This document shows, one piece after another, positions 18,645 to 40,083 of a DNA stretch of 64,000 nucleotides (its first letter is position 1; each line of letters opens with the position of its first letter). The translations under genes were made by a program, and so were the position numbers. The DNA is from a bacterium (GTDB lineage Bacteria; Patescibacteriota; Minisyncoccia; Phycocordibacterales; UBA2100). The notes beneath the pieces are model-generated. The model saw only the letters and a list, made by a program, of their open reading frames with translations, had not been told where the DNA came from and searched no databases. The stretch is taken from the NCBI GenBank assembly GCA_030674455.1, contig JAUSGQ010000015.1:5574-69573 (forward strand), given 5' to 3'.

Positions 18645-18845
18645 GGTTGTATGTGATTGTTTTTTGGATTCTTTAAGCACCCCCTCGTCGCATTAAAACC
18701 ACGCGTTTTCTGAACTTCAAACGGGGCAGGTGTCGCGCGAGTGTATCACAGGCAATAGGCACTAGGCAAATGACCGTACAGTCCGTAACCAGCAGTTACT
18801 AGTTAGTTGTCAATGTACCAAGGGGCGCCCTTGCCGCTTCTTTGT

Positions 18846-18883
18846 ATTGCTTTAGCAAATGCGGCCGCATTTTCTAAAGCAAT
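18846..18883. promoter_or_regulatory. Palindrome ATTGCTTTAGCAAATGCGGCCGCATTTTCTAAAGCAAT (core ATGCGGCCGCAT) in the rpsB upstream region
   Basis: One of three ATGCGGCCGCAT-centred long palindromes in the window; the others are at 20989-21028 and 40015-40056. Confidence 0.6.
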
Positions 18884-19006
18884 ATGCAGTCATACCAACA
18901 TTTTCAGTATCCGATACTTAGTTATAGACCTAAGTATCTGGATGCAAAAATCGCGAGACGCTCTGGACACTTTCGCCACTTTGTACTTATTGGTATCGTA
19001 TAGGTT

Positions 19007-23907: not shown

Positions 23908-24040
23908 AGTCCCAATCTACAAATGATACGAATACTACCTGCCCGCCGAAGCCTCGGCGCAGGCGGGCGAATGGCTACGAATACACGTGGTTTAACATTT
24001 GTAGTTATTTGTAGATTGGAATAAATTTGTAGATTGGTAC
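23908..24040. repeat. MITE-like intercistronic element R3, filling the leuC stop to leuD start gap
   Basis: AGTCCCAATCTACAAAT...ATTTGTAGATTGGTACACCT-ATG, with a nested GC hairpin module CCTGCCCGCCGAAGCCTCGGCGCAGGCGGGCG. Confidence 0.8.
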
Positions 24041-24044
24041 ACCT

Positions 24045-24644
24045 ATGAAATCATCTCAATTCAAAGACCTCACATCCACGCTCGCACCCCTGATGCGCGA
24101 CAATGTCGACACCGACCAGATAATTCCGGCGCGCTTTCTCACGGCAACCGACAAAAAGGGATTCGGCATGCGCCTCTTCATGGATTTGCGCTACGAGGAT
24201 GACGGCTTCACGCCCAAGCCCGATTTCGTCCTGAACCAAAAGAAATACAAGAGCGCAAAAATCCTTCTCGCGCATGAAAATTTCGGCTGCGGTTCCTCAC
24301 GCGAACACGCGCCCTGGGCCATCATCGGCGCAGGCTTTACTGCCGTCATCGCGGTCTCATTCGCCGACATATTCAAAAATAATTCGGCAAAAAATGGCTT
24401 GCTCCTCGTCGAACTGCCCCGAGAAGTGATAGACGCGATGCATGCCGACGTCGAAAAAAACCCTAAAGAGAAAGCAAGTATAAATTTGGAAAAGCAAACG
24501 CTCACGTGGAAAAAGCAGGCGCACACATTCGCAATCAACCCGTTCGTTAAGAAGTGCCTTATGGAAGGCCTTGATGACATCGGATACACTTTAAGCTTCG
24601 CTAAGGAAATCAAATCGTTCGAAAACACAAGAGATCAGGCATAA
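24045..24644 (+). CDS. leuD: 3-isopropylmalate dehydratase small subunit
   Basis: LMRDNVDTDQIIPARFL... is a typical LeuD sequence. Confidence 0.9.
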   Translation: MKSSQFKDLTSTLAPLMRDNVDTDQIIPARFLTATDKKGFGMRLFMDLRYEDDGFTPKPDFVLNQKKYKSAKILLAHENFGCGSSREHAPWAIIGAGFTAVIAVSFADIFKNNSAKNGLLLVELPREVIDAMHADVEKNPKEKASINLEKQTLTWKKQAHTFAINPFVKKCLMEGLDDIGYTLSFAKEIKSFENTRDQA

Positions 24645-24754
24645 ATGCTCGGGGCATGCGACCTTTCATTGACGATTCATGGATGTGCCTATATGAGCAA
24701 TGTGCCTGTGGGCGGAAGCCCCTTTTCGGCTAAGGATTCCCAAAGCTGAAGACA

Positions 24755-24797
24755 GGCGCACCAAAGAGCGCCACCATACGGTGGTGTTTTTTGTTTT
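24755..24797 (+). terminator. Rho-independent terminator after leuD (CCACC-ATAC-GGTGG followed by TGTTTTTTGTTTTC)
   Basis: Read from the sequence. Confidence 0.7.
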
Positions 24798-24870
24798 CTA
24801 ATCTAACCACTGCTAGCAAAACCATTTTTGCTTTCAATTCTCACCTCGCTCCCACATTTTCTAACCATTC

Positions 24871-25161
24871 TCATTCTAACATTTTGCAAAATGTTAGAAC
24901 GTGAACTGCACGGGCGGTTAGCTTATGCCTTACGCTCCTCGCGTCGTAGCGTTTCAGAATGAGTCCTGCAATTGCCATCTTGCGCAGGTGGTCGGATGCA
25001 TTCTCGTACCCGATGTTCAATCGCTCGGCGATATCCTCAACCGAAAGCTCCGGCTCTTTGTGCAACAGGTTAAGAATTTCGAGCCGCCGGTGATTCGCAA
25101 AACCTTTTACCACCCTCTCAAGCCGCCGATAGTTAGTTGGATTGTTAGTCGCTCCTGTCAT
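24871..25161 (-). CDS. ArsR/SmtB-family HTH transcriptional regulator (paralog 1)
   Basis: 96 aa with ...RRLEILNLLHKEPELSVEDIAERLNIGYENASDHLRKMAIAGLI... (wHTH). The C-terminal ...VLTFCKMLE is encoded by the 3' palindrome. Confidence 0.75.
   Translation of the reverse strand: MTGATNNPTNYRRLERVVKGFANHRRLEILNLLHKEPELSVEDIAERLNIGYENASDHLRKMAIAGLILKRYDARSVRHKLTARAVHVLTFCKMLE
24874..24899. promoter_or_regulatory. Palindrome TTCTAACATTTTGCAAAATGTTAGAA overlapping the 3' end (C-terminal codons) of ArsR paralog 1
   Basis: Read from the sequence. Same core as the 44 bp palindrome upstream of the gene. Confidence 0.65.
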
Positions 25162-25170
25162 GCTTGCATG

Positions 25171-25214
25171 TTATCCACATTCTAACATTTTGCAAAATGT
25201 TAGAATGTGGATAA
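25171..25214. promoter_or_regulatory. Perfect 44 bp palindrome TTATCCACATTCTAACATTTTGCAAAATGTTAGAATGTGGATAA between the ArsR gene (divergent) and leuA
   Basis: Read from the sequence. 10 bp upstream of the ArsR start codon. Confidence 0.7.
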
Positions 25215-25268
25215 CCGAATGAGCGGAGAGATGAAATCTCGATGAGAAAACGGTCGAGACGTAGCCGC

Positions 25269-25306
25269 GCCTCTCGCAAGAAAAGCCAGTTCTGCTATAT
25301 TAGTGA
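25269..25306 (+). promoter_or_regulatory. Conserved promoter-like motif CCTCTCGCAAGAAAAGCCAGTTCTGCTATATTAGTGAG (-10 TATATT 25285-25290) upstream of leuA
   Basis: Paralogous to the motif at 22399-22436 upstream of leuC. Confidence 0.55.
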
Positions 25307-25318
25307 GACCAAAACAAT

Positions 25319-27049
25319 ATGCGTAATTCAGCAAAAAAATACCGTTCGTTTCCGCCCGTCGGCCTCAAAGACCGGACGTGGCCAAACAAGACCATAACCA
25401 AAGCGCCTCGCTGGTGCTCTGTCGATTTGCGCGACGGCAATCAGGCGCTCATAACGCCGATGAACCTTGAGCAGAAACTCAACATGTTCAAACTGCTCGT
25501 GGACATAGGATTCAAGGAAATCGAGGTGGGCTTCCCTTCCGCTTCGCAGGTGGAATTTGATTTTGTCCGCACGCTTATCGAGCGCAAGTTGATTCCGGCC
25601 GACGTTACCATCCAAGTGCTGACGCAAGCGCGCGAACACCTCATCGAAACCACGTGCCGCTCGCTCGTGGGAGCTAAGCGCGCGCTCATTCACGTGTACA
25701 ACTCCACTTCGGAACTCCAGCGCCGCGTCGTATTCCGAATGGGCAAGAAGGAGGTAAAAGAGCTGGCCGTCAAAGGAACCGCATGGACGCGCCAGTACAG
25801 CGAGAAATATCTTAATGGCACGGATGTCTTCTACGAATACAGTCCCGAAAGCTTCATGGGAACAGAGCTGGATTTCGCAGTTGAGGTGTGCGACGCAGTC
25901 GTCGATGAATGGAAACCGAAAGCTGGAGAAAGGGTCATCATCAATTTGCCCAACACGGTTGAACTCGCAACCCCCAATATTTACGCCGACCAAATCGAGT
26001 GGTTCTGCCGACACTTCAAATCACGCGACAAAGCGATTATCAGTCTTCACTGCCACAACGACCGCGGGAGCGCAGTTGCTGCGTCCGAGCTCGGCATCAT
26101 GGCCGGCGCCGAACGCGTGGAAGGCACGCTCTTCGGCAACGGCGAGCGCACCGGCAATGTCGACATCATCACGCTCGCGCTCAATCTCCACACACAGGGC
26201 ATCGACCCGGGACTCGACCTGCACGATATGGACCACTGCATTGAAGTCTACGAATCATGCACCGACCTCACCGTCCCCCCGCGCCATCCATACGCGGGCG
26301 AATTGGTCTTTACCGCATTTTCCGGCTCGCATCAAGACGCGATAGACAAGGGCTTCCGTGCGATGAAAGATTCCGGGAAAACTCTCTGGGAAGTTCCCTA
26401 CATCCCGATGGACCCCAAAGATGTCGGCCACACCTACGAGGCGGTCATCCGCATCAACAGCCAGTCCGGCAAGGGAGGCGTTGCGCACATTCTGCGCGTC
26501 GAGTTCGGCTACAACACACCGAAGGCGATGCACCCCGAGTTGGGCAAGATGATCCAACGCATTTCCGACGCGACCGGCCAAGAAGTACTGCCAGGAGTAA
26601 TCCGAAAAGCGTTTGAGGATGAATATCTGAATCGTTCGAGCCCAGTCTCGCTCGAGAGTTTCAAGATCAGCGACCAGAGCGGCCTAAATGGCGACGTCAC
26701 CTCAATTTCTGCAGTCATCAAAAAGGACGGGAAAAAGCGCACGGTTAAAGACACCGGCAACGGCCCTATCGATGCCTTCAGCAAAGCACTCAAGCGCGCT
26801 GGCGCTGGCCACTACACGTTCCTCTCATACGAGGAACACGCGCTCGGCAAAGGCGAAGACGCGCGCGCCGTCGCCTACATTCAAATAGCCGATGAACATG
26901 GCAAAGCATATTTCGGCGTCGGCACCGATTTCAACATTGTCGGCGCATCTCTGCGCGCTCTTTTGAGCGCACTGAATCGTTCGGAACAATCTAAAACCGA
27001 CAAATCAAAACAGAAAGCATCCGCCACCGGCGCAAAGAAACACACATGA
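25319..27049 (+). CDS. leuA: 2-isopropylmalate synthase (long form with C-terminal regulatory domain)
   Basis: DLRDGNQ, HCHND and a LeuA dimer/regulatory C-terminal domain. 576 aa. Confidence 0.9.
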   Translation: MRNSAKKYRSFPPVGLKDRTWPNKTITKAPRWCSVDLRDGNQALITPMNLEQKLNMFKLLVDIGFKEIEVGFPSASQVEFDFVRTLIERKLIPADVTIQVLTQAREHLIETTCRSLVGAKRALIHVYNSTSELQRRVVFRMGKKEVKELAVKGTAWTRQYSEKYLNGTDVFYEYSPESFMGTELDFAVEVCDAVVDEWKPKAGERVIINLPNTVELATPNIYADQIEWFCRHFKSRDKAIISLHCHNDRGSAVAASELGIMAGAERVEGTLFGNGERTGNVDIITLALNLHTQGIDPGLDLHDMDHCIEVYESCTDLTVPPRHPYAGELVFTAFSGSHQDAIDKGFRAMKDSGKTLWEVPYIPMDPKDVGHTYEAVIRINSQSGKGGVAHILRVEFGYNTPKAMHPELGKMIQRISDATGQEVLPGVIRKAFEDEYLNRSSPVSLESFKISDQSGLNGDVTSISAVIKKDGKKRTVKDTGNGPIDAFSKALKRAGAGHYTFLSYEEHALGKGEDARAVAYIQIADEHGKAYFGVGTDFNIVGASLRALLSALNRSEQSKTDKSKQKASATGAKKHT

Positions 27050-28140
27050 GCAAGACCGGCACCATAGCAGTCCTGCCGGGCGACGGCATCGGCCCCGAGA
27101 TAATGGCCTCAGCAATCAAGGTCTTGGACGCAGTCAGCGCGAAATGCGGCCACACATTTGAGACAAAAGAAGGATTAACCGGCGGCCTCGCGTACGACAA
27201 ATTCGGCGTCCACCTGCCGGAAGAGACAATAAAAATCTGTGAAGCTTCCGACGCAATCCTCTTCGGCGCCGTCGGCGGTCATGTTTCCGACCAGGAATCC
27301 CCGCGCTGGAAAGATGCCGAAAAGAACGTCATCCTTGGGCTTCGCAAGAAATTCAATCTGTTCGCCAACCTGCGCCCGCTCAAAGTCTGGCCCGGAACGG
27401 AATCTTTTAGCCCGCTTCAGGAGCGCTTCATCAAAGGCACCGACGTTTTAATCGTGCGCGAACTTATCGCCGGTCTCTACTTCGGCCCGATGCGCCGCTT
27501 TGAAGAGAATGGAGAAATTACAGCGGAAGAAACGAGCCGCTACACATGGAAACAAATCGAGAACGTCGTGCGCATCGCGTTTCAGGCCGCGCAAAAGAGA
27601 AAAAAGAAACTCACCGTCGTCGACAAAGCGAATGTGCTGGAAACGTCGCGTCTCTGGCGCGAAGTCGCGCGCAAAATCCAGCTCGAGTTCCTTGATGTCG
27701 CCATGGATTTTATGTTCGTCGACAACGCGGCCCAACAGCTCGTTCGCTCACCCGCTTCGTTTGATGTCATTGCGACAGACAACATGTTCGGCGACATTTT
27801 AAGCGACCTCGGCGGCGCCGTCGTCGGCTCTCTCGGCTTGGTACCTTCCGCCAGCATATCCGCCAAAGGCGGAGAAAAGAAATTCGGCCTTTACGAACCC
27901 GCCCACGGCTCCGCGCCTGACATTGCAGGGAAAGGAATCGCGAACCCGACCGCGCAAATCCTCTCGCTCGCGATGCTCCTGCGCTACACCTACGAGCTAG
28001 ACAAAGAGGCGCAGGCAATTGAGGAAGCGGTGCTCGCAGCATGGAAAGCAGGCAAGAAAACGAAAGACCTCGCGGCCCCGGGCGAAGCGAGTCTTTCTAC
28101 CGATGAGTTCACATCTTGCGTCATCGAGAGATTGAAGTAA
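27046..28140 (+). CDS. leuB: 3-isopropylmalate dehydrogenase
   Basis: MSKTGTIAVLPGDGIGPEIM..., NMFGDILSDLGG, GSAPDIAGKG. Confidence 0.9.
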   Translation: MSKTGTIAVLPGDGIGPEIMASAIKVLDAVSAKCGHTFETKEGLTGGLAYDKFGVHLPEETIKICEASDAILFGAVGGHVSDQESPRWKDAEKNVILGLRKKFNLFANLRPLKVWPGTESFSPLQERFIKGTDVLIVRELIAGLYFGPMRRFEENGEITAEETSRYTWKQIENVVRIAFQAAQKRKKKLTVVDKANVLETSRLWREVARKIQLEFLDVAMDFMFVDNAAQQLVRSPASFDVIATDNMFGDILSDLGGAVVGSLGLVPSASISAKGGEKKFGLYEPAHGSAPDIAGKGIANPTAQILSLAMLLRYTYELDKEAQAIEEAVLAAWKAGKKTKDLAAPGEASLSTDEFTSCVIERLK

Positions 28141-28156
28141 TAATCAGGTGACTATG

Positions 28157-28260
28157 AAGTCCCAATCTGCAAATGATACGAATACTACGAATGGCTACAA
28201 ATATTACACATCTTACATTTGTAGTTATTTGTAGATTGGGATAGATTCGTAGATTGGTAC
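28157..28260. repeat. MITE-like intercistronic element R4, filling the leuB stop to ilvE start gap
   Basis: GAAGTCCCAATCTGCAAATGATACGAATAC...ATTTGTAGATTGGGATAGATTCGTAGATTGGTACAC. Confidence 0.8.
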
Positions 28261-28265
28261 ACTCT

Positions 28266-29204
28266 ATGCAAGCGACAAAATACATCTGGTTTAATGGGAA
28301 GCTCGTTCCATGGAAGAGCGCAAAAATCCATGTGCTATCGCACTCGCTCCACTATGGTACTGCTGCTTTCGAGGGCATCCGCATGTACGACACAAAAAAA
28401 GGTCCTGCCATCTTCCACCTGAAACGACACATGGAACGCCTCATCTTCTCGGCCAAAAGTCTCGGGATGGATTTGCCGTATACACTCCCCCAGCTCATGC
28501 AGGCCGCGGTAGACACGGTGAGCAAGAATAAATTGAAGTCGTGCTACATCCGCCCCATCGCCTACTACGGTTTCGGCGAAGTGCGCGTGCTCCCCACCAA
28601 CTGCCCTATCGAAGTCGCTATCGCCGCATGGCCGTGGGGCGCCTACTTGGGCGACGAGCCGGCTCGCATCACAGTGGTAAAGACGCTCCGCATCCATCCG
28701 CAAACGCTCCGCGTGAAAGCGAAAATCAGCGGCCACTATGTGAACTCCATGCTCGCTGGCCGCGAGGCCACAGACCGCGGATTCACCGAAGCGCTTCAAC
28801 TAGACTACAAGGGCAATATCGCCGAAGGCCCGGGCGAAAATTTCTTTATCGTTAAGGGAAAGACCCTTACGACGCCGGCACTCGGCTCGATTCTCCCCGG
28901 CATTACTCGCGAATCTGTCATCACCCTCGCGCGCGACTTGGGCTACAAAGTGGTGGAGCGTGCGGTAACGGTTAAAGACGCGCTTTCTGCCGACGAATGT
29001 TTCTTCACCGGCACCGCCGCGGAAGTGACGGCCATCGCCTCGATAGACAATAAGAAAATGAAAACCGCTAGTGGTTCGTCTACAGATGCCGATGCCTACT
29101 CCATCGGCCCAGTCACTAAACAAATCCGCGAAGAATTCCTCAAAATAACGAGAGGCGAAAATCCAAAGTACAAAAAGTGGCTGACGTTTGTAAAAGAATA
29201 CTAG
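28266..29204 (+). CDS. ilvE: Branched-chain amino acid aminotransferase (class IV)
   Basis: YIWFNGKLVPW, a C-terminal EGPGENFF...GTAAEV motif region. ATG at 28266; the track's TTG start at 28254 lies inside R4. Contains an in-frame palindromic element (SSTDADAYS) at 29077-29108. Confidence 0.85.
   Translation: MQATKYIWFNGKLVPWKSAKIHVLSHSLHYGTAAFEGIRMYDTKKGPAIFHLKRHMERLIFSAKSLGMDLPYTLPQLMQAAVDTVSKNKLKSCYIRPIAYYGFGEVRVLPTNCPIEVAIAAWPWGAYLGDEPARITVVKTLRIHPQTLRVKAKISGHYVNSMLAGREATDRGFTEALQLDYKGNIAEGPGENFFIVKGKTLTTPALGSILPGITRESVITLARDLGYKVVERAVTVKDALSADECFFTGTAAEVTAIASIDNKKMKTASGSSTDADAYSIGPVTKQIREEFLKITRGENPKYKKWLTFVKEY
29077..29108 (+). repeat. In-frame copy of the type-B palindromic element CGTCTACAGATGCCGATGCCTACTCCATCGGC within ilvE
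   Basis: The same element occurs intergenically at 36767-36799 and at the purD 3' end at 56746-56778. E. coli IlvE is about 10 aa shorter at this position. Confidence 0.7.
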
Positions 29205-29312
29205 CGGTTCCCATCGTATTCTCGAGGTGACTCCTGCCTTAACTTCGGACTCACCGAGGTGACTCCTTGGCATTTGCAAGGTGTCTCCTCGGGTTCGACC
29301 TCTCGCTTTCGC

Positions 29313-29708
29313 TCATCTATTCAAAATAGTTACCGTCAGCTGCAAAATTGTCGCAAAAGAAACCCAGAGAAGATACGGGATTTGAATGTACGTAATCCAG
29401 CGCGCAAAGGGATATATGGCGAGCATCGCCCAAATAAGCGTCGCGAGCACTAGAACAACGTCCACCGCAGCAAGCTCATTATTTTTCAGGCCGAATTGGA
29501 TCCACGTGAACGCGAAATTGAAGACAAGATTCAGAAGAAATGGCAGAGCAACCAGGAACGGAATTTCTTTTTGCCAGGCCATAAAAAACACTTTCCCGAA
29601 CGAAACCGCAATCAATATATACAGCACGCTCCACACCGGTCCGAATATCCAGCCGGGCGGCGCCCACGATGGCTTGATGAGGGTCTGGTATGAGGCGTAT
29701 GAATCCAT
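29313..29708 (-). CDS. TspO/MBR (tryptophan-rich sensory protein) family membrane protein
   Basis: LIKPSWAPPGWIFGPVWSVLYILIAVSFG matches the TspO signature PxWxPPxWxFGPVWxxLY. 131 aa, 4-5 TM. Confidence 0.6.
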   Translation of the reverse strand: MDSYASYQTLIKPSWAPPGWIFGPVWSVLYILIAVSFGKVFFMAWQKEIPFLVALPFLLNLVFNFAFTWIQFGLKNNELAAVDVVLVLATLIWAMLAIYPFARWITYIQIPYLLWVSFATILQLTVTILNR

Positions 29709-29731
29709 AACTGCTCCCGCATTATAACCCG

Positions 29732-30001
29732 CTAATCTTCCCTCAAGTGCTTATTGCGCGACTTTTTCATGCTCTCCATCCTGCCCTTCATGAGCGTAGA
29801 CCAGCCCAAAATCCCAATGGCCGACCGCACCGCCTCCGCCTCATCATCGCTAAGCGGATACTTACTAATCAGCTTTGTTAACACATCAATCGCCGTCTTA
29901 TCTTCCATCCCAAAATTATACCAAACCACCAACCGCCAATCCCAACCCGTCTCCAATGACACTCTCACATTCTTGAGAATGTGAGAATGTTCATAAGACA
30001 A
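29732..30001 (-). CDS. Hypothetical small protein
   Basis: 89 aa ORF preceded by the palindrome TCTCACATTCTTGAGAATGTGAGA (29958-29981). Start uncertain. Confidence 0.3.
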   Translation of the reverse strand: MSYEHSHILKNVRVSLETGWDWRLVVWYNFGMEDKTAIDVLTKLISKYPLSDDEAEAVRSAIGILGWSTLMKGRMESMKKSRNKHLRED

Positions 30002-30025
30002 GCCGTACCGATATTGCTTTCTTTT

Positions 30026-31177
30026 TTAGCGCCAGCTTTTTGCACCCTCAAAAACAATCTTCGCGGAAGAACCGAGAACAATCAGAACTAGTACGAATTT
30101 AGCGAGACCGCCGAGCACGGGGATAAGTCCGAGCAACGTGTAGATAAGCACGCCGAGCAGTATCGTCTGCCATGTGAGCTGATATTCCGCTTGTTTGTAG
30201 AATTTCTTATACACGTATGCGCCGAGAAGCACCGCCGCCCACGCCGAAGCCGTGAGCATAAGCGCCCCGAAGAGGAGGAGCCCCAGCACGCCGAATGGAA
30301 TGCCGATGAGCGTTACAAGCGCAATGACAGAAGCTATCGGAAGAACAATAAGTACGATGAATCCTCGGCCAATTTCTTGGAACGGATGTGCCGCTGCGCT
30401 CGCGACAACCGCGAACGCAAAGCGTTTGAATAAGAGTCCGAGTACGAGTGCGAAGAGAAGCGCAGCCAGGAACTTACCGAGGAAGAGAGCGGACAGAATC
30501 GCGATTATGCCCTCTTTTGTAATCGGACTTTTTGCAGGACTCGTTAGCTGCGTGAAGGTCGTCTTCCCTTTCACCACAGCGCCGGTTTCAATAGTGGCTT
30601 CCGATGCCGCTGCGTAATCCAGATTGCCGTCGATAACAGCATCTTTGCCCAGTGTAAGTTTGTTGCCGGTGAATATTACATTTCCGCTCACATGAGAATT
30701 GATGACGACTTCGCCGCCCTTTAACTGCATCTTTCCTCCCACCGGAGCGTTTACCGCGAGAGCACCGCCTGCCCATACCACATCTCTGCCGACACTGCCG
30801 GAAATTTGCGTTTGTCCGCCCGCCACTACGATATCTTTTCCGACTTTACCGGCAATAGAAATGTTACCGCCCGCTACGCGCAAATCATCGCCAACATCCG
30901 AAAGAATAGCAATCGAGCCGCCGCCGATGAGAGCATCCTGCGAGACCGGACCATTAACTGAAACATTGCCTCCGCCGATAACAAGATCGCCGACCACCGT
31001 GCCGCCGCTTGAGATATTGCCGCCGAGGAGATAGAGGTCGTTATTTACCGTTTCTGTCGCGGAAAGCGTTGGCGACTCGCCCGTGCGAATCTCCGCCGCT
31101 ATCGCAGCTACCGGAATAATAAGCGTACTAATGATAATTGCCGCCCACGCCCACGAACCCTTTAAAGAGTTGCTCAT
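30026..31177 (-). CDS. Bactofilin-like polymer-forming protein with a C-terminal multi-TM domain
   Basis: Signal/TM, then degenerate beta-helix repeats (GGNIS.GG, GDLVIGGGNVSVNG, VAGGNISIAG, as in bactofilin/CcmA) and 4-5 C-terminal TM helices. Confidence 0.55.
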   Translation of the reverse strand: MSNSLKGSWAWAAIIISTLIIPVAAIAAEIRTGESPTLSATETVNNDLYLLGGNISSGGTVVGDLVIGGGNVSVNGPVSQDALIGGGSIAILSDVGDDLRVAGGNISIAGKVGKDIVVAGGQTQISGSVGRDVVWAGGALAVNAPVGGKMQLKGGEVVINSHVSGNVIFTGNKLTLGKDAVIDGNLDYAAASEATIETGAVVKGKTTFTQLTSPAKSPITKEGIIAILSALFLGKFLAALLFALVLGLLFKRFAFAVVASAAAHPFQEIGRGFIVLIVLPIASVIALVTLIGIPFGVLGLLLFGALMLTASAWAAVLLGAYVYKKFYKQAEYQLTWQTILLGVLIYTLLGLIPVLGGLAKFVLVLIVLGSSAKIVFEGAKSWR

Positions 31178-31212
31178 GAATAAATGATACCCCCTCCCAC
31201 AGGCTTTTCAAC

Positions 31213-31255
31213 TCCCTTATCAACCCCCTTTTCAACCCCCTTTTCAACCCCTATT
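31213..31255. repeat. Short tandem repeat (TTCAACCCCCTT)x3
   Basis: Read from the sequence. It creates the STPFSTPFSTP spurious ORF. Confidence 0.7.
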
Positions 31256-31257
31256 TT

Positions 31258-31291
31258 CTTATTGCAGTGTTTTGCAAAACACTGCAATAAG
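31258..31291. promoter_or_regulatory. Perfect 34 bp palindrome CTTATTGCAGTGTTTTGCAAAACACTGCAATAAG
   Basis: Read from the sequence. Related copies lie at 31356-31387 and 31652-31683, flanking ArsR paralog 2. Confidence 0.65.
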
Positions 31292-31355
31292 ATACTGAAA
31301 GAAAAAATCGGCGCTATCGTTTTTACACTTTATCGCCCCGTCACTCAATTTCTCG

Positions 31356-31637
31356 CTATTGCAGTCTTTTGCAAAACACTAGAATAGACTCCCCGCGCGG
31401 CGTTAGTTTGTGTCGGACACTGGGTCCCTCGTTTCGCTTCAGCACAAGACCTGCAATCGCAAGTTTGCGAACATGGTCGGACGCATTTTCGTATCCAATA
31501 TCCAACCTTTCGGAAATATCCTCTACTGATAACTCCGGTTCGCGCTTCAGCAAATCCATAATCTGAACGCGCCGGTGATTAGCGAACCCCTTCACGATTC
31601 GTTCGATATTTCTGTACTGACTACTATCTACCGCCAT
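31356..31637 (-). CDS. ArsR/SmtB-family HTH transcriptional regulator (paralog 2)
   Basis: 93 aa, about 60% identical to paralog 1 (RVQIMDLLKREPELSVEDISERLDIGYENASDHVRKLAIAGLVLKR). The C-terminal ILVFCKRLQ is encoded by the palindrome at 31356-31387. Confidence 0.75.
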   Translation of the reverse strand: MAVDSSQYRNIERIVKGFANHRRVQIMDLLKREPELSVEDISERLDIGYENASDHVRKLAIAGLVLKRNEGPSVRHKLTPRGESILVFCKRLQ

Positions 31638-31651
31638 GCTCCCATTTTACC

Positions 31652-31683
31652 CTATTGCAGTGTTTTGCAAAACACTGGAATAG
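31652..31683. promoter_or_regulatory. Palindrome CTATTGCAGTGTTTTGCAAAACACTGGAATAG, 15 bp upstream of the ArsR paralog 2 start
   Basis: Read from the sequence. Confidence 0.65.
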
Positions 31684-31746
31684 AGAAAACTGTTTATAAC
31701 CGTGTACAGACAGTACAGACGAGGTGTGCGCTCCGTCGGAAACTGG

Positions 31747-32061
31747 CTAGTATGAATACGTAATTTCCCTAATTTGCGGCAATACCTTTTTTATCTTTTC
31801 ATCCATGCTTACGCCGAAGTGAAGGTCTGCCAATCCGCATCCTTGGCAATTTCCGACCAAGCGCAAGATAACCGAATCCGACTCCACGGCAACGAGTTCC
31901 GCGCCCCCTCCGTGTTCCGTGAACATGGGCTCAAATTCTTTCAAAACTGCCTCAACCGCGGCGATGATTTGTTTTGTGGTCTTCTTTTTAGTTGGTTTTG
32001 TGCTCTTTTTCCCTGCCCCACTAGAGACAGTTCGCGCTCGTATGTCTTTCTTTATAGTCAT
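31747..32061 (-). CDS. NifU-like (Nfu) Fe-S cluster carrier domain protein
   Basis: C-terminal ...LRLVGNCQGCGLADLHF... (CxxC Nfu motif), with an N-terminal Lys/Thr-rich tail. Confidence 0.55.
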   Translation of the reverse strand: MTIKKDIRARTVSSGAGKKSTKPTKKKTTKQIIAAVEAVLKEFEPMFTEHGGGAELVAVESDSVILRLVGNCQGCGLADLHFGVSMDEKIKKVLPQIREITYSY

Positions 32062-32132
32062 AGGTCATTTAGTGTATCAAAAACCAGCAAACATTCGATA
32101 TTTTTTTCTCTAATGGAGAACTTTTGAGTTGT

Positions 32133-33032
32133 TCACTTTGATTCACCAATTCCGATCAGAGTGTCTCCGATTCGCACGATGCGAATTTCATCATTATCCA
32201 TTTCACACACCAGCCCCGTAAAATTGCTGCGTACAAAGTTTCTTGTTCTATCGGAAATCATCTCTCCTACTACATCCCCTTTCAAGATTTTTTTGCCGAG
32301 AGCAAGCTGTTTGTTTTTAATAAACTCTCCTGTTTTTTCTGATTTGATAAGATTTATTACAACATGGGGAATTTCATCAAATTCAATTGCTTTGAAATTA
32401 TTTTTATTTTCACGACCCTGCAGATAAGCAATTAATCCAGATACGATTCGGTCTATCTGCTCTCGACTCACTTTATGCTCAACTGGTACTTCGAGAAGAA
32501 TGTATGGGATGCGCGATTCTTTTAAATACTGCGCCAATGTTCCGGTCTTTCGGTTCTTATGCTCCGCGGGTGAGGAGCGGACCACATCTGGATCGAAGAG
32601 GGTCGCTACCTGATCTGCACGGCCAACATGATTAGAGACAACTTGAATCAAGCCCGCGGTAGTGAAATTGTGCAGGTCAATAACGCAATCATGTTGTTTT
32701 GCAATACTGATAATCTTTCTGATGATTCCATGCGCGAGACCCTCATCAACTGCGTCAAAGAAATGTCTGTTCAGATCGAGACCAGAGGTACTTTCCTGGC
32801 GAGAATTTGCCAGAAAACCTGTGGGATTTGCGATCGGCAGGATAGTTAATGTGCCAATAAATGTCGGCAATTTCTGCATTAATTCGCCAATGATAATCTG
32901 TCCCGATTTTTCATTACCATGTATGCCGGATATCAATAATGTTTTCGGCGCACCCCCACCAAATGAAAGACAATCAAGGAAAATCGGTTCATCCGGGTTG
33001 GGAATCGAGAGTTTGCTTTTTACAAAATCCAT
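32133..33032 (-). CDS. Succinylglutamate desuccinylase / aspartoacylase (AstE/AspA) family zinc hydrolase
   Basis: ISGIHGNEKSG and the ...DLHN... motifs typical of AstE_AspA. 299 aa. Confidence 0.55.
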   Translation of the reverse strand: MDFVKSKLSIPNPDEPIFLDCLSFGGGAPKTLLISGIHGNEKSGQIIIGELMQKLPTFIGTLTILPIANPTGFLANSRQESTSGLDLNRHFFDAVDEGLAHGIIRKIISIAKQHDCVIDLHNFTTAGLIQVVSNHVGRADQVATLFDPDVVRSSPAEHKNRKTGTLAQYLKESRIPYILLEVPVEHKVSREQIDRIVSGLIAYLQGRENKNNFKAIEFDEIPHVVINLIKSEKTGEFIKNKQLALGKKILKGDVVGEMISDRTRNFVRSNFTGLVCEMDNDEIRIVRIGDTLIGIGESK

Positions 33033-39950: not shown

Positions 39951-40014
39951 TATGGGGCTGGATTAGCTCTCGAGCAATAGCACGCGAGGGTCGGATATAA
40001 ACTCGACTTCTAGC

Positions 40015-40056
40015 ATATTGCTGTAGCAAATGCGGCCGCATTTGCTACAGCAATAT
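40015..40056. promoter_or_regulatory. Perfect 42 bp palindrome ATATTGCTGTAGCAAATGCGGCCGCATTTGCTACAGCAATAT upstream of the suf operon
   Basis: Read from the sequence. Same ATGCGGCCGCAT core and near-identical arms to 18846-18883. Confidence 0.65.
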
Positions 40057-40083
40057 GCAACTGGAATCATTTCTCCAAATTCG

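What the first reader, a model, noticed from the sequence alone, without database searches (positions are those of the whole stretch)
31258..31683. Second ArsR paralog with the same architecture but divergent palindrome arms: a paired repressor/operator specificity switch
ArsR paralog 2 (31356-31637) is flanked by three copies of ATTGCAGTGTTTTGCAAAACACTGCAAT, at 31258-31291 (perfect), 31356-31387 (encoding the C-terminus ILVFCKRLQ*) and 31652-31683 (upstream). Both paralogs' palindromes share the centre TTTTGCAAAA, which in the coding copies reads F-C-K, but they have different arms: TTCTAACA versus TTGCAGTG. This looks like co-diverged protein-DNA specificity pairs. Because the operator half is embedded in the coding sequence, protein and site are constrained to co-evolve.
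Basis: partly seen in the sequence, partly recalled or inferred. Interest (0 to 1): 0.6.

Follow-up and report, generated by a model that had tools for sequence, protein, structure and literature searches.

The report
Repressor gene encoding its own operator
A small DNA-binding regulator of uncultivated Parcubacteria carries one copy of its presumed binding site over its own promoter and a second copy written into its last nine codons. This layout is conserved in the 82 family genes examined (over 1000 protein homologues exist) and recurs in a second, distant subfamily, and it appears undescribed.

Summary
Three copies of ATTGCAGTGTTTTGCAAAACACTGCAAT surround the 93-aa ArsR-fold gene at 31356-31637 (-). 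Paralog 1 (24871-25161) has the same layout with different arms.

The layout is family-wide in 80 related genomes:
- 76 of 82 genes have a TTTTG|CAAAA-centred palindrome upstream, most often 30 nt before the ATG. It overlaps a leaderless promoter.
- All 82 carry a second copy in the codons I-L-V/T-F-C-K-x-L-x-stop.
- Synonymous sites in that copy are frozen (Leu CTA 80/82 against an 8% background).
- The coding copy evolves in concert with the upstream copy.

A second ArsR-like subfamily (39% identical) has the same two-site layout with an unrelated palindrome in 7 of 7 loci.

The paralog-specific arms track a wing-tip residue, not the recognition helix, which is invariant. K/R goes with A at operator position 8.

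About 55% of such palindromes lie away from any family gene, some between convergent gene ends.

Best reading: these are cognate operators at both gene boundaries. The upstream one gives autorepression. The 3' one most likely acts as a roadblock or downstream gate (inferred). This is a new variant of a known kind. No binding has been tested.

The parts
31356..31637 (-). Paralog 2: a 93-aa ArsR/SmtB-fold winged-helix gene
   Evidence: ORF. Pfam HTH_5 scores 28.2 bits against a cut-off of 22. The AF2 model has pLDDT 84.7 and the order a1-a2-a3-aR-b1-b2-a5. Foldseek best matches are SqrR, CadC, HlyU and SmtB at TM about 0.75-0.8. More than 1000 homologues were found.
31652..31683 (.). Upstream palindrome (presumed operator), centred 30 nt before the ATG
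   Evidence: In the family the modal position is -30, seen in 25 of 76 genes.
31644..31671 (-). Promoter-like site TTTGCA-16-TAAAAT. The -10 hexamer ends 6 nt before the ATG, which implies a leaderless mRNA. The -35 hexamer lies on the palindrome centre.
   Evidence: In the family, TAnnnT starts at -12 in 48 of 82 genes and SD-like motifs are absent.
31356..31387 (.). Coding copy of the palindrome. It encodes ILVFCKRLQ plus the stop, which forms the end of helix alpha5.
   Evidence: Codons are frozen across 82 genes. As RNA it folds no better than shuffled sequence (z = 0.23).
31257..31292 (.). Third copy, a perfect 36-bp palindrome. It lies 64 nt after the stop of paralog 2, and its centre is 97 nt before the next gene's ATG.
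   Evidence: Comparable extra downstream copies occur in L001, L016, L020, L050 and L080.
31204..31251 (.). Tandem repeat of 12 nt, 4 copies (GGGGTTGAAAAG on the minus strand). It supplies the -35 hexamer of the downstream promoter-like site.
31184..31211 (-). Promoter-like site TTGAAA-16-TATCAT, followed by 6 nt and then the ATG at 31177
30026..31177 (-). Downstream gene of 383 aa with a Gly-rich repeat and hydrophobic C-terminal stretches. It has no Pfam match and is a possible target.
24871..25161 (-). Paralog 1: a 96-aa ArsR-fold gene lying between leuD and leuA
25170..25215 (.). Upstream palindrome of paralog 1 (perfect, 46 bp), centred 31 nt before the ATG. TAACAT lies at -12.
24868..24905 (.). 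Coding copy of paralog 1, encoding VLTFCKMLE plus the stop
   Evidence: 14 of 15 positions complementary.

Best explanation
Paralogs 1 and 2 are small ArsR/SmtB-fold winged-helix proteins of a Kaiserbacteria-like Parcubacterium. They have no recognisable metal site. Each most likely binds, as a dimer, its own palindrome of about 30 bp centred on TTTTG|CAAAA.

The upstream copy covers the -35 and spacer of the gene's leaderless promoter. Binding there should repress the gene, giving negative autoregulation.

A second copy is written into the last nine codons, at the end of helix alpha5. Selection at synonymous sites keeps it there. I infer that it is a second operator at the 3' boundary of the gene. 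A bound dimer there would block RNA polymerase crossing the boundary in either direction, much as LacI does at O3 and C.Kpn2I does inside its own gene. Where a gene abuts downstream, the same site would also gate that gene's promoter.

Further copies, such as 31257-31292, extend this control to other intergenic sites.

The two paralogs recognise different arms, at positions 6-8 and 10-11 from the dyad. The likely discriminator is the wing tip (R in paralog 1, P in paralog 2), not the recognition helix.

Shown: the anatomy, its conservation, the codon freeze, the concerted evolution, the promoter geometry and the covariation. Inferred: binding itself, repression, and the roadblock role.
For: - The palindrome goes with the gene in 76 of 82 loci upstream and 82 of 82 in the last codons.
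- Promoter geometry: the -10 TAnnnT starts at -12 in 48 of 82 genes, there is no SD motif, and the palindrome centre lies at -30.
- Codon freeze in the coding copy (P values). Leu CTA 80/82 against 8% background (P = 5e-85). Arg AGA 27/27 against 7%. Phe TTT 82/82. Lys AAA 81/82. Glu GAA 37/37.
- Compensatory synonymous changes keep the arms paired. The second Leu is TTA when the residue before Phe is Thr (ACA), and CTN when it is Val.
- Within a locus the coding and upstream copies share 26.1 of 30 positions. Shuffled pairings share 23.8 +/- 0.2, with none of 2000 shuffles reaching the observed value.
- A second subfamily, 39% identical and with an unrelated palindrome, has the same two-site layout in 7 of 7 loci. 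The dyad there sits on the stop codon.
- Wing-tip K/R covaries with position 8 (Fisher P = 4e-22). An independent set agrees.
- The invariant recognition helix matches the invariant core of +/-5 bp.
- The ArsR fold is supported.
- Roadblock autoregulation at an operator inside a repressor's own gene is documented for LacI O3 (PMC3711431) and C.Kpn2I (PMC6237814).
Against: - No binding data exist.
- In a palindrome-first sample, 92 of 166 sites are not at a family gene. About 15 of 66 intergenic sites lie between convergent gene ends, where there is no promoter to repress.
- The arms stay complementary at low-information positions 6, 12 and 16-19. Intergenic copies also reproduce the asymmetry that coding forces on the 3' copy (31 loci against 11). 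Both features also fit copying or gene conversion.
- Spacing between the two sites ranges from 283 to 340 bp with no helical periodicity, which argues against a phased loop.
- The covariation statistics are not corrected for phylogeny.
Confidence: 0.6

Rival explanations
1. The 3' copy is only the operator of whatever promoter lies downstream. In compact genomes that promoter overlaps the regulator's last codons. On this view the copy has no role in autoregulation or insulation.
For: In about a third of main-family loci a co-oriented gene starts within 60 nt of the stop. Several of these show -10 + 6 nt + ATG with the coding copy about 40 nt upstream (L032, L049, L051, L057, L063, L065). In subfamily 2 a co-oriented downstream gene starts 5-42 nt after the stop in five of the seven loci.
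Against: Paralog 1 faces the convergent leuD, with an intrinsic terminator in between. The next start after paralog 2 is 178 nt away and has its own palindrome copy and promoter. The coding copy is kept in all 82 genes whatever lies downstream.
Confidence: 0.2
2. The palindromes are a dispersed, self-propagating or recombination-homogenised repeat, similar to REP or MITE elements. Their similarity reflects copying. The protein is at most a domesticated binder.
For: The sites are dispersed across all intergenic contexts: co-directional 41, convergent 15, divergent 10. Copies within one genome are nearly identical, including shared asymmetries (L012, L014, L001). Arms are complementary without sequence conservation at positions 6, 12 and 16-19. 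Other long palindrome families occur in the same window.
Against: The central 10 bp is invariant across distant lineages and matches an invariant recognition helix. The geometry relative to the -10 and the ATG is fixed. There is a one-to-one pairing between regulator subfamily and palindrome type. Wing-tip covariation holds. No transposase is associated. No copy was found in viral contigs.
Confidence: 0.1
3. The palindromes act as RNA hairpins, either as terminators or as stabilisers of mRNA 3' ends.
For: Perfect copies would fold strongly as RNA: -21.7 to -32 kcal/mol, z = -4 to -9. Many sites lie just after stop codons.
Against: The coding copy of paralog 2 folds no better than shuffled sequence (-11.1 kcal/mol, z = 0.23), yet its codons are frozen. 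Coding copies with only 9-12 of 15 pairs are common (41 of 82 genes). No T-run follows the palindromes and the scan found no terminator-like site. The flanks are mostly purine-rich after the palindrome on both strands. The loop-equivalent centre is the most conserved part. A canonical terminator exists elsewhere in the window.
Confidence: 0.05
4. The protein and its sites organise the chromosome or mark boundaries, as centromere-binding AspA does or as ParB does at parS. They would not regulate individual genes.
For: AspA, a centromere-binding winged-helix protein, is among the sequence and structure matches. The sites are dispersed and include convergent gene ends. The protein is unusually conserved (about 65-90% identity, mostly 70-88%) across the Parcubacteria lineages sampled.
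Against: The AspA match is weak (E = 3e-4) and no better than the matches to ordinary ArsR repressors. No par genes lie nearby. The promoter-overlap geometry points to transcription control.
Confidence: 0.08

Closest known systems
ArsR/SmtB-family autorepressors (SmtB, CzrA, CadC, HlyU, SqrR)
   Same: The fold is the same: a1-a2-a3-aR-wing-a5. The proteins are small, and an inverted repeat overlaps the gene's own promoter.
   Different: There is no a3N or a5 metal-ligand set and no Cys pair, only one invariant Cys. The operator is about 30 bp or more and centred on TTTTGCAAAA. A second operator copy is encoded in the a5 codons. The mRNA is leaderless.
LacI auxiliary operator O3 in the 3' end of lacI (roadblock, truncated mRNA, SsrA tagging; PMC3711431 and Abo et al. 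2000 as cited there)
   Same: An operator for the repressor lies at the 3' end of its own coding region and can lower its own expression by blocking elongation.
   Different: O3 is a weak auxiliary site of one gene in one lineage and acts through a tetramer loop to O1. Here the site is near-consensus, spans the last nine codons and the stop, and is conserved with frozen codons across a whole family and in a second subfamily.
C.Kpn2I controller protein (PMC6237814)
   Same: A small HTH regulator whose binding site lies inside its own coding region and acts as an elongation roadblock.
   Different: The fold is different (Xre-type C-protein), the setting is a restriction-modification system, and the site is not at the stop codon. 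No paired promoter copy of the same site is described in the abstract I read.
parS inside spo0J/parB of Bacillus subtilis (from my own knowledge, not checked here)
   Same: The cognate palindrome of a DNA-binding protein lies inside that protein's own gene, and further copies are dispersed in the genome.
   Different: ParB is a CTP-dependent partition protein that spreads along DNA. No par context is present here.

Membership tests
ArsR/SmtB superfamily (fold) | Winged helix-turn-helix with the order a1-a2-a3-aR-b1-b2-a5 | tested here: met
   The AF2 model has H5-18, H21-32, H38-45, H49-61, E65-70, E73-78 and H80-92. Foldseek matches SqrR, CadC, HlyU, SmtB and CzrA at TM 0.75-0.83.
ArsR/SmtB superfamily (sequence models) | Score above the curated family cut-off | tested here: inconclusive
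   Pfam HTH_5 scores 28.2 and 32.4 bits against a cut-off of 22, so it is met. NCBIfam HTH_metalloreg scores 50.3 and 53.8 against a cut-off of 55, just below.
Metal- or persulfide-sensing ArsR/SmtB regulators | An a3N CXC site, an a5 Asp/His/Glu ligand set, or a Cys pair as in SqrR and BigR | tested here: not met
   Read directly from the alignment. Helix a3 (SVEDISERL) has no Cys. Helix a5 (PRAESILVFCKRLQ) has no His/Asp ligand set. Only one Cys is invariant (C89).
Autoregulated repressor with a promoter operator | Inverted repeat overlapping the core promoter of its own gene | tested here: met
   The palindrome centre lies at -30 and the -10 at -12 to -7. Binding itself cannot be tested with these tools.
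Roadblock autoregulation of the LacI-O3 / C.Kpn2I type | Cognate operator inside the regulator's own coding region | tested here: met
   The coding copy is present in 82 of 82 genes and its codons are frozen.
Roadblock autoregulation of the LacI-O3 / C.Kpn2I type | Truncated transcripts that end at the occupied operator | not testable with these tools
   This needs in vitro transcription or mapping of RNA 3' ends.
Intrinsic terminator | G+C-rich stem followed by a T-run | tested here: not met
   The scan found no terminator-like site in 31100-31800. The RNA fold of the paralog 2 coding copy gives z = 0.23.
REP/RAYT-type dispersed palindromes | A Y1 (HUH) transposase gene flanked by the repeats | tested here: not met
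   The flanked gene is a 93-aa winged-helix protein. No transposase lies nearby in the window.

The most novel reading that the evidence does not exclude
Patescibacteria may use families of small winged-helix proteins, each with its own long palindrome, as general boundary elements. These would be protein roadblocks placed at gene ends, including between convergent genes. Each regulator would insulate its own gene by writing one copy of the site into its final codons. Changes in the coding sequence of helix a5 and changes in the genome-wide site set would then be forced to evolve together.
Probability: 0.2. Interest if true: 0.8.

Novelty: new variant of a known kind. Interest (0 to 1): 0.62.

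Why it matters
Almost nothing is known about gene regulation in the uncultivated Patescibacteria (CPR). This analysis yields a testable regulator and site pair. It also gives a clear promoter model, a -10 hexamer followed by 6 nt and then the ATG, which implies leaderless transcripts.

The case is also an unusually clean example of dual coding. The same 30 bp specify a protein helix and the presumed binding site of that protein. Codon-level evidence shows that both constraints act.

The co-resident paralogs, with arms that track one wing-tip residue, offer a natural system for studying how regulators become insulated from one another.

Tried and rejected
- Rfam scan of 24000-33000. It returned only sub-threshold miRNA-hairpin matches, so no known RNA family is present.
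- Viral contigs. The palindrome was not found, so there is no phage link.
- RNA-hairpin or terminator reading. Rejected for the coding copy.
- Phased DNA loop. Not favoured, because the spacing of 283-340 bp shows no periodicity.
- Conserved regulon. Clustering the genes next to sites gave only the family gene itself plus a weak TspO signal. Spurious antisense ORFs dominated the rest, so the result is inconclusive.
- Exact-sequence look-up of the paralog 2 protein to recover its contig. It is not on record.
- Literature searches for the motif, for CPR regulators and for leaderless Parcubacteria genes. Nothing relevant was found.
- My first wing-tip regular expression was wrong, so one search gave no data. 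One search is the corrected run.
- I first took the downstream 383-aa gene to be bactofilin-like. Pfam gives no match, so I dropped the label.

Full report
**Observation**

ATTGCAGTGTTTTGCAAAACACTGCAAT occurs at three places.
- 31261-31288, with 0 mismatches.
- 31358-31385, with 3 mismatches.
- 31654-31681, with 1 mismatch.

No shuffle gave any match. The first copy sits in a perfect 36-bp palindrome at 31257-31292.

The second copy, read on the minus strand, is ATT CTA GTG TTT TGC AAA AGA CTG CAA TAG. That is the C-terminus ILVFCKRLQ* of the 93-aa ORF at 31356-31637. The third copy is centred 30 nt before that ORF's ATG.

TTTTGCAAAA occurs five times in the window against 0.31 expected. All five lie at this gene or at paralog 1.

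Paralog 1 (24871-25161, minus strand, 96 aa) is 67% identical to paralog 2. It has a perfect 46-bp palindrome at 25170-25215, centred 31 nt before its ATG. Its coding copy at 24868-24905 encodes VLTFCKMLE*.

**What the proteins are**

Both proteins pass the Pfam HTH_5 cut-off. Both fall just short of the NCBIfam ArsR/SmtB cut-off.

An AlphaFold model built on a 47-sequence alignment has pLDDT 84.7. It shows the ArsR/SmtB order a1-a2-a3-aR-b1-b2-a5. Its best structural matches are SqrR, CadC, HlyU, SmtB and CzrA at TM about 0.75-0.8.

The palindrome-encoded residues form the end of helix a5, which is the dimerisation helix in this superfamily (established knowledge of ArsR/SmtB structures).

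No canonical metal or Cys-pair site is present. One Cys is invariant, and its TGC codon lies exactly on the dyad of the coding copy.

**The layout is family-wide**

A protein search gave more than 1000 homologues, the best 120 of them 76-100% identical. The named ones come mostly from Kaiserbacteria, Paceibacterota and Parcubacteria metagenome-assembled genomes.

I fetched eighty genome loci.
- 76 of 82 genes (the 80 loci plus the two window paralogs) have a TTTGCAAA-centred palindrome upstream. The modal centre is 30 nt before the ATG.
- All 82 have the coding copy, reading I/V-L-V/T/A/M-F-C-K-x-L-x-stop.

*Promoter.* A TAnnnT hexamer starts at -12 in 48 of 82 genes. That leaves 6 nt before the ATG, and SD-like motifs are absent. 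The consensus scan independently reports TTTGCA-16-TAAAAT for paralog 2. The gene is therefore most likely transcribed as a leaderless mRNA from a promoter whose -35 and spacer are covered by the palindrome. That position is typical of a repressor site.

**The coding copy is a nucleic-acid element, not a by-product of protein conservation**

Synonymous positions in the last nine codons are almost invariant (P values).

| Codon | Observed | Background in the rest of the same genes |
|---|---|---|
| Leu CTA | 80/82 (P = 5e-85) | 8% |
| Arg AGA | 27/27 | 7% |
| Phe TTT | 82/82 | 55% |
| Lys AAA | 81/82 | 52% |
| Glu GAA | 37/37 | 47% |
| Gln CAA | 30/31 | 42% |
| Thr ACA | 10/10 | 25% |
| Ile ATC | 0/66 | 29% |

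Pairs that depend on synonymous choices also covary. The second Leu is TTA when the residue before Phe is Thr (ACA), and CTN when it is Val (GTN). The third base of the Val codon tends to pair with the second base of the x codon. Examples are GTC with AGA in L014, GTT with AAA in L024 and GTG with ACA in L009.

**Concerted evolution**

Within a locus, the coding and upstream copies share 26.1 of 30 positions. When loci are shuffled they share 23.8 +/- 0.2, and none of 2000 shuffles reaches the observed value.

Asymmetries that coding forces on the 3' copy reappear in intergenic copies in the same orientation. An example is G/G at position 6 with Val GTG and Arg AGA. Another is CTGCAA for Leu-Gln. 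Same-orientation identity exceeds flipped identity in 31 loci against 11 (P = 0.003). L012 carries three identical asymmetric 30-mers.

In the window, the GCAG arms of the intergenic paralog 2 copies equal the Leu-Gln half of the coding copy. It fits gene conversion equally well.

**Specificity of the paralogs**

The recognition helix GYENASDH[VIL]RK[LM]AIAGL is the same in both operator classes. This fits the invariant +/-5 bp core.

What tracks the class is the wing tip, the sixth residue in KRxx[G/A]X.
- With K/R, 23 of 24 upstream half-sites have A at position 8.
- With any other residue, 4 of 128 do (Fisher P = 4e-22).
- In 28 further genes from metagenome contigs the rule held in 4 of 4 and 52 of 52 half-sites.

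Paralog 1 has R (YDARS) and AC-type arms. Paralog 2 has P (NEGPS) and GT-type arms.

Three other genomes with two paralogs carry a GT-class or Met-type gene beside an AC-class one: L001/L056, L007/L067 and L016/L076. The other four pairs are both GT-class and differ more subtly. Both site classes occur dispersed on single contigs such as L099, L115 and L148. These statistics are not corrected for phylogeny.

**A second, independent case of the same design**

L072 also encodes a distant ArsR-like protein, 39% identical and ending KTFSHS*. It has a different palindrome, AACATTCTCACATTCTT|AAGAATGTGAGAATGTT. One copy is centred 35 nt before the ATG, and one has its dyad on the stop codon.

This subfamily has 635 homologues across Taylor-, Sung-, Portnoy-, Buchanan- and Wolfebacteria. 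Six further loci all show an upstream copy and a 3' copy or half-site.
- Five of the six keep a palindrome on the stop codon.
- L206, whose protein is extended, keeps only the coding half-site.
- In L204 a Ser-to-Gln change in the coding copy tracks the variant upstream site.

A third subfamily, ending ISNSLE*, repeats its upstream ATTCGC-type motif at its 3' end. Each subfamily is thus paired with its own palindrome, and in all three the second copy sits at the 3' end of the gene. These two facts are the strongest arguments that the sites are cognate and that the 3' copy is functional.

**Dispersed copies**

Of 166 sites, 55 are at a family gene and 92 are clearly elsewhere. By crude gene calls the elsewhere sites fall into four contexts.
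- 41 in co-directional intergenic regions.
- 15 in convergent intergenic regions.
- 10 in divergent intergenic regions.
- 13 inside ORFs.

I checked five of the convergent cases. Three are short gaps between long ORFs that look like metA, pdxT, an ornithine carbamoyltransferase gene and miaA by sequence inspection. The sites are therefore not only promoter operators.

The arms stay complementary at low-information positions. At position 6 the observed fraction is 0.76 against 0.42 expected, and at position 12 it is 0.88 against 0.43. At positions 16-19 it ranges from 0.63 to 0.42 against 0.40 to 0.30.

**Mechanism**

The best-supported chain runs as follows.
1. The palindromes are cognate dimer sites.
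2. The upstream site represses the leaderless promoter, giving autoregulation.
3. The 3' site is a second operator at the gene boundary.

For step 3, I favour a roadblock or gate. It would stop polymerases crossing the boundary in either direction. It would also control an abutting downstream promoter where one exists. Several loci place the coding copy about 40 nt before a -10 + 6 nt + ATG start. The documented analogues are LacI at O3 (PMC3711431) and C.Kpn2I (PMC6237814).

A phased loop is not favoured, because spacing of 283-340 bp shows no periodicity.

An RNA hairpin is not favoured either.
- The paralog 2 coding copy folds no better than shuffled sequence (z = 0.23).
- No T-runs follow the palindromes.
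- The centre is the most conserved part.
- A canonical terminator exists elsewhere in the window.

**Verdict**

There are co-diverged regulator and palindrome pairs, and a real coupling between coding sequence and site. However, the discriminator is the wing tip and a5 region rather than the recognition helix, and the sites form a dispersed set.

I found no description of this system in the searchable literature. I rate it a new variant of a known kind.

Noticed in passing
L072 1138-1480; L201-L206 (gene at 801 to about 1085 in each): A second ArsR-like subfamily (ending KTFSHS*, 39% identical, 635 homologues) has its own palindrome, AACATTCTCACATTCTT|AAGAATGTGAGAATGTT. One copy lies about 34 nt upstream of the ATG (-64 in L201) and one has its dyad on the stop codon.
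   Followed up: yes
window 29959-29990: A palindrome of the subfamily-2 type (2 mismatches) lies 66 nt upstream of a 58-aa ORF (29732-29908, minus strand) that has TATAAT + 6 nt + ATG. No subfamily-2 gene lies in the window, so its regulator would be elsewhere in the genome.
   Followed up: partly
window 40013-40058 and 18845-18884: Another long palindrome family centred on GCGGCCGC (TATTGCTnTAGCAAATGCGGC|...). One copy lies between an apparent ilvA (threonine dehydratase-like) stop and an apparent sufC start. The other lies 165 nt upstream of an apparent rpsB. These gene names are my reading of the ORFs and were not checked against family models.
   Followed up: partly
window 31204-31251: A 12-nt unit (GGGGTTGAAAAG on the minus strand) is repeated four times in tandem. 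Each unit carries a -35-like TTGAAA. The last one is used in the promoter-like site TTGAAA-16-TATCAT of the 383-aa gene.
   Followed up: partly
L031 5111-5374; L136; L170: A third small ArsR-like subfamily (ending ISNSLE*) repeats its upstream ATTCGC-type motif at its own 3' end.
   Followed up: partly
family loci L001-L080 and neighbouring genes: The arrangement -10 hexamer + 6-7 nt + ATG, with no SD motif, recurs at many genes. This suggests that leaderless transcription is common in these Parcubacteria.
   Followed up: partly
window 24045-27049: Paralog 1 lies on the opposite strand between leuD and leuA, interrupting a leuC-leuD-leuA run (leuC named by inspection only). A canonical intrinsic terminator (24762-24803, plus strand) follows leuD.
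   Followed up: no
L056, upstream of the gene (centre -30): This operator is a hybrid, with an AC-type left half and a GT-type right half. Its genome also has a GT-type paralog (L001). This may indicate cross-regulation or a heterodimer.
   Followed up: no
window 29313-29708; L013, L049, L054, L095: A TspO/MBR gene is a recurrent neighbour of family genes or sites. YdeI-like, DUF1905-like, YchF-like and GIY-YIG-like genes also appear to recur downstream; these labels and the TspO calls outside the window are by sequence inspection, not family models.
   Followed up: partly
3' flanks of family genes in L002, L010, L019, L023, L026, L028: Long purine-rich (G/A) tracts follow the stop codon in many Kaiserbacteria loci. 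They are unexplained.
   Followed up: no
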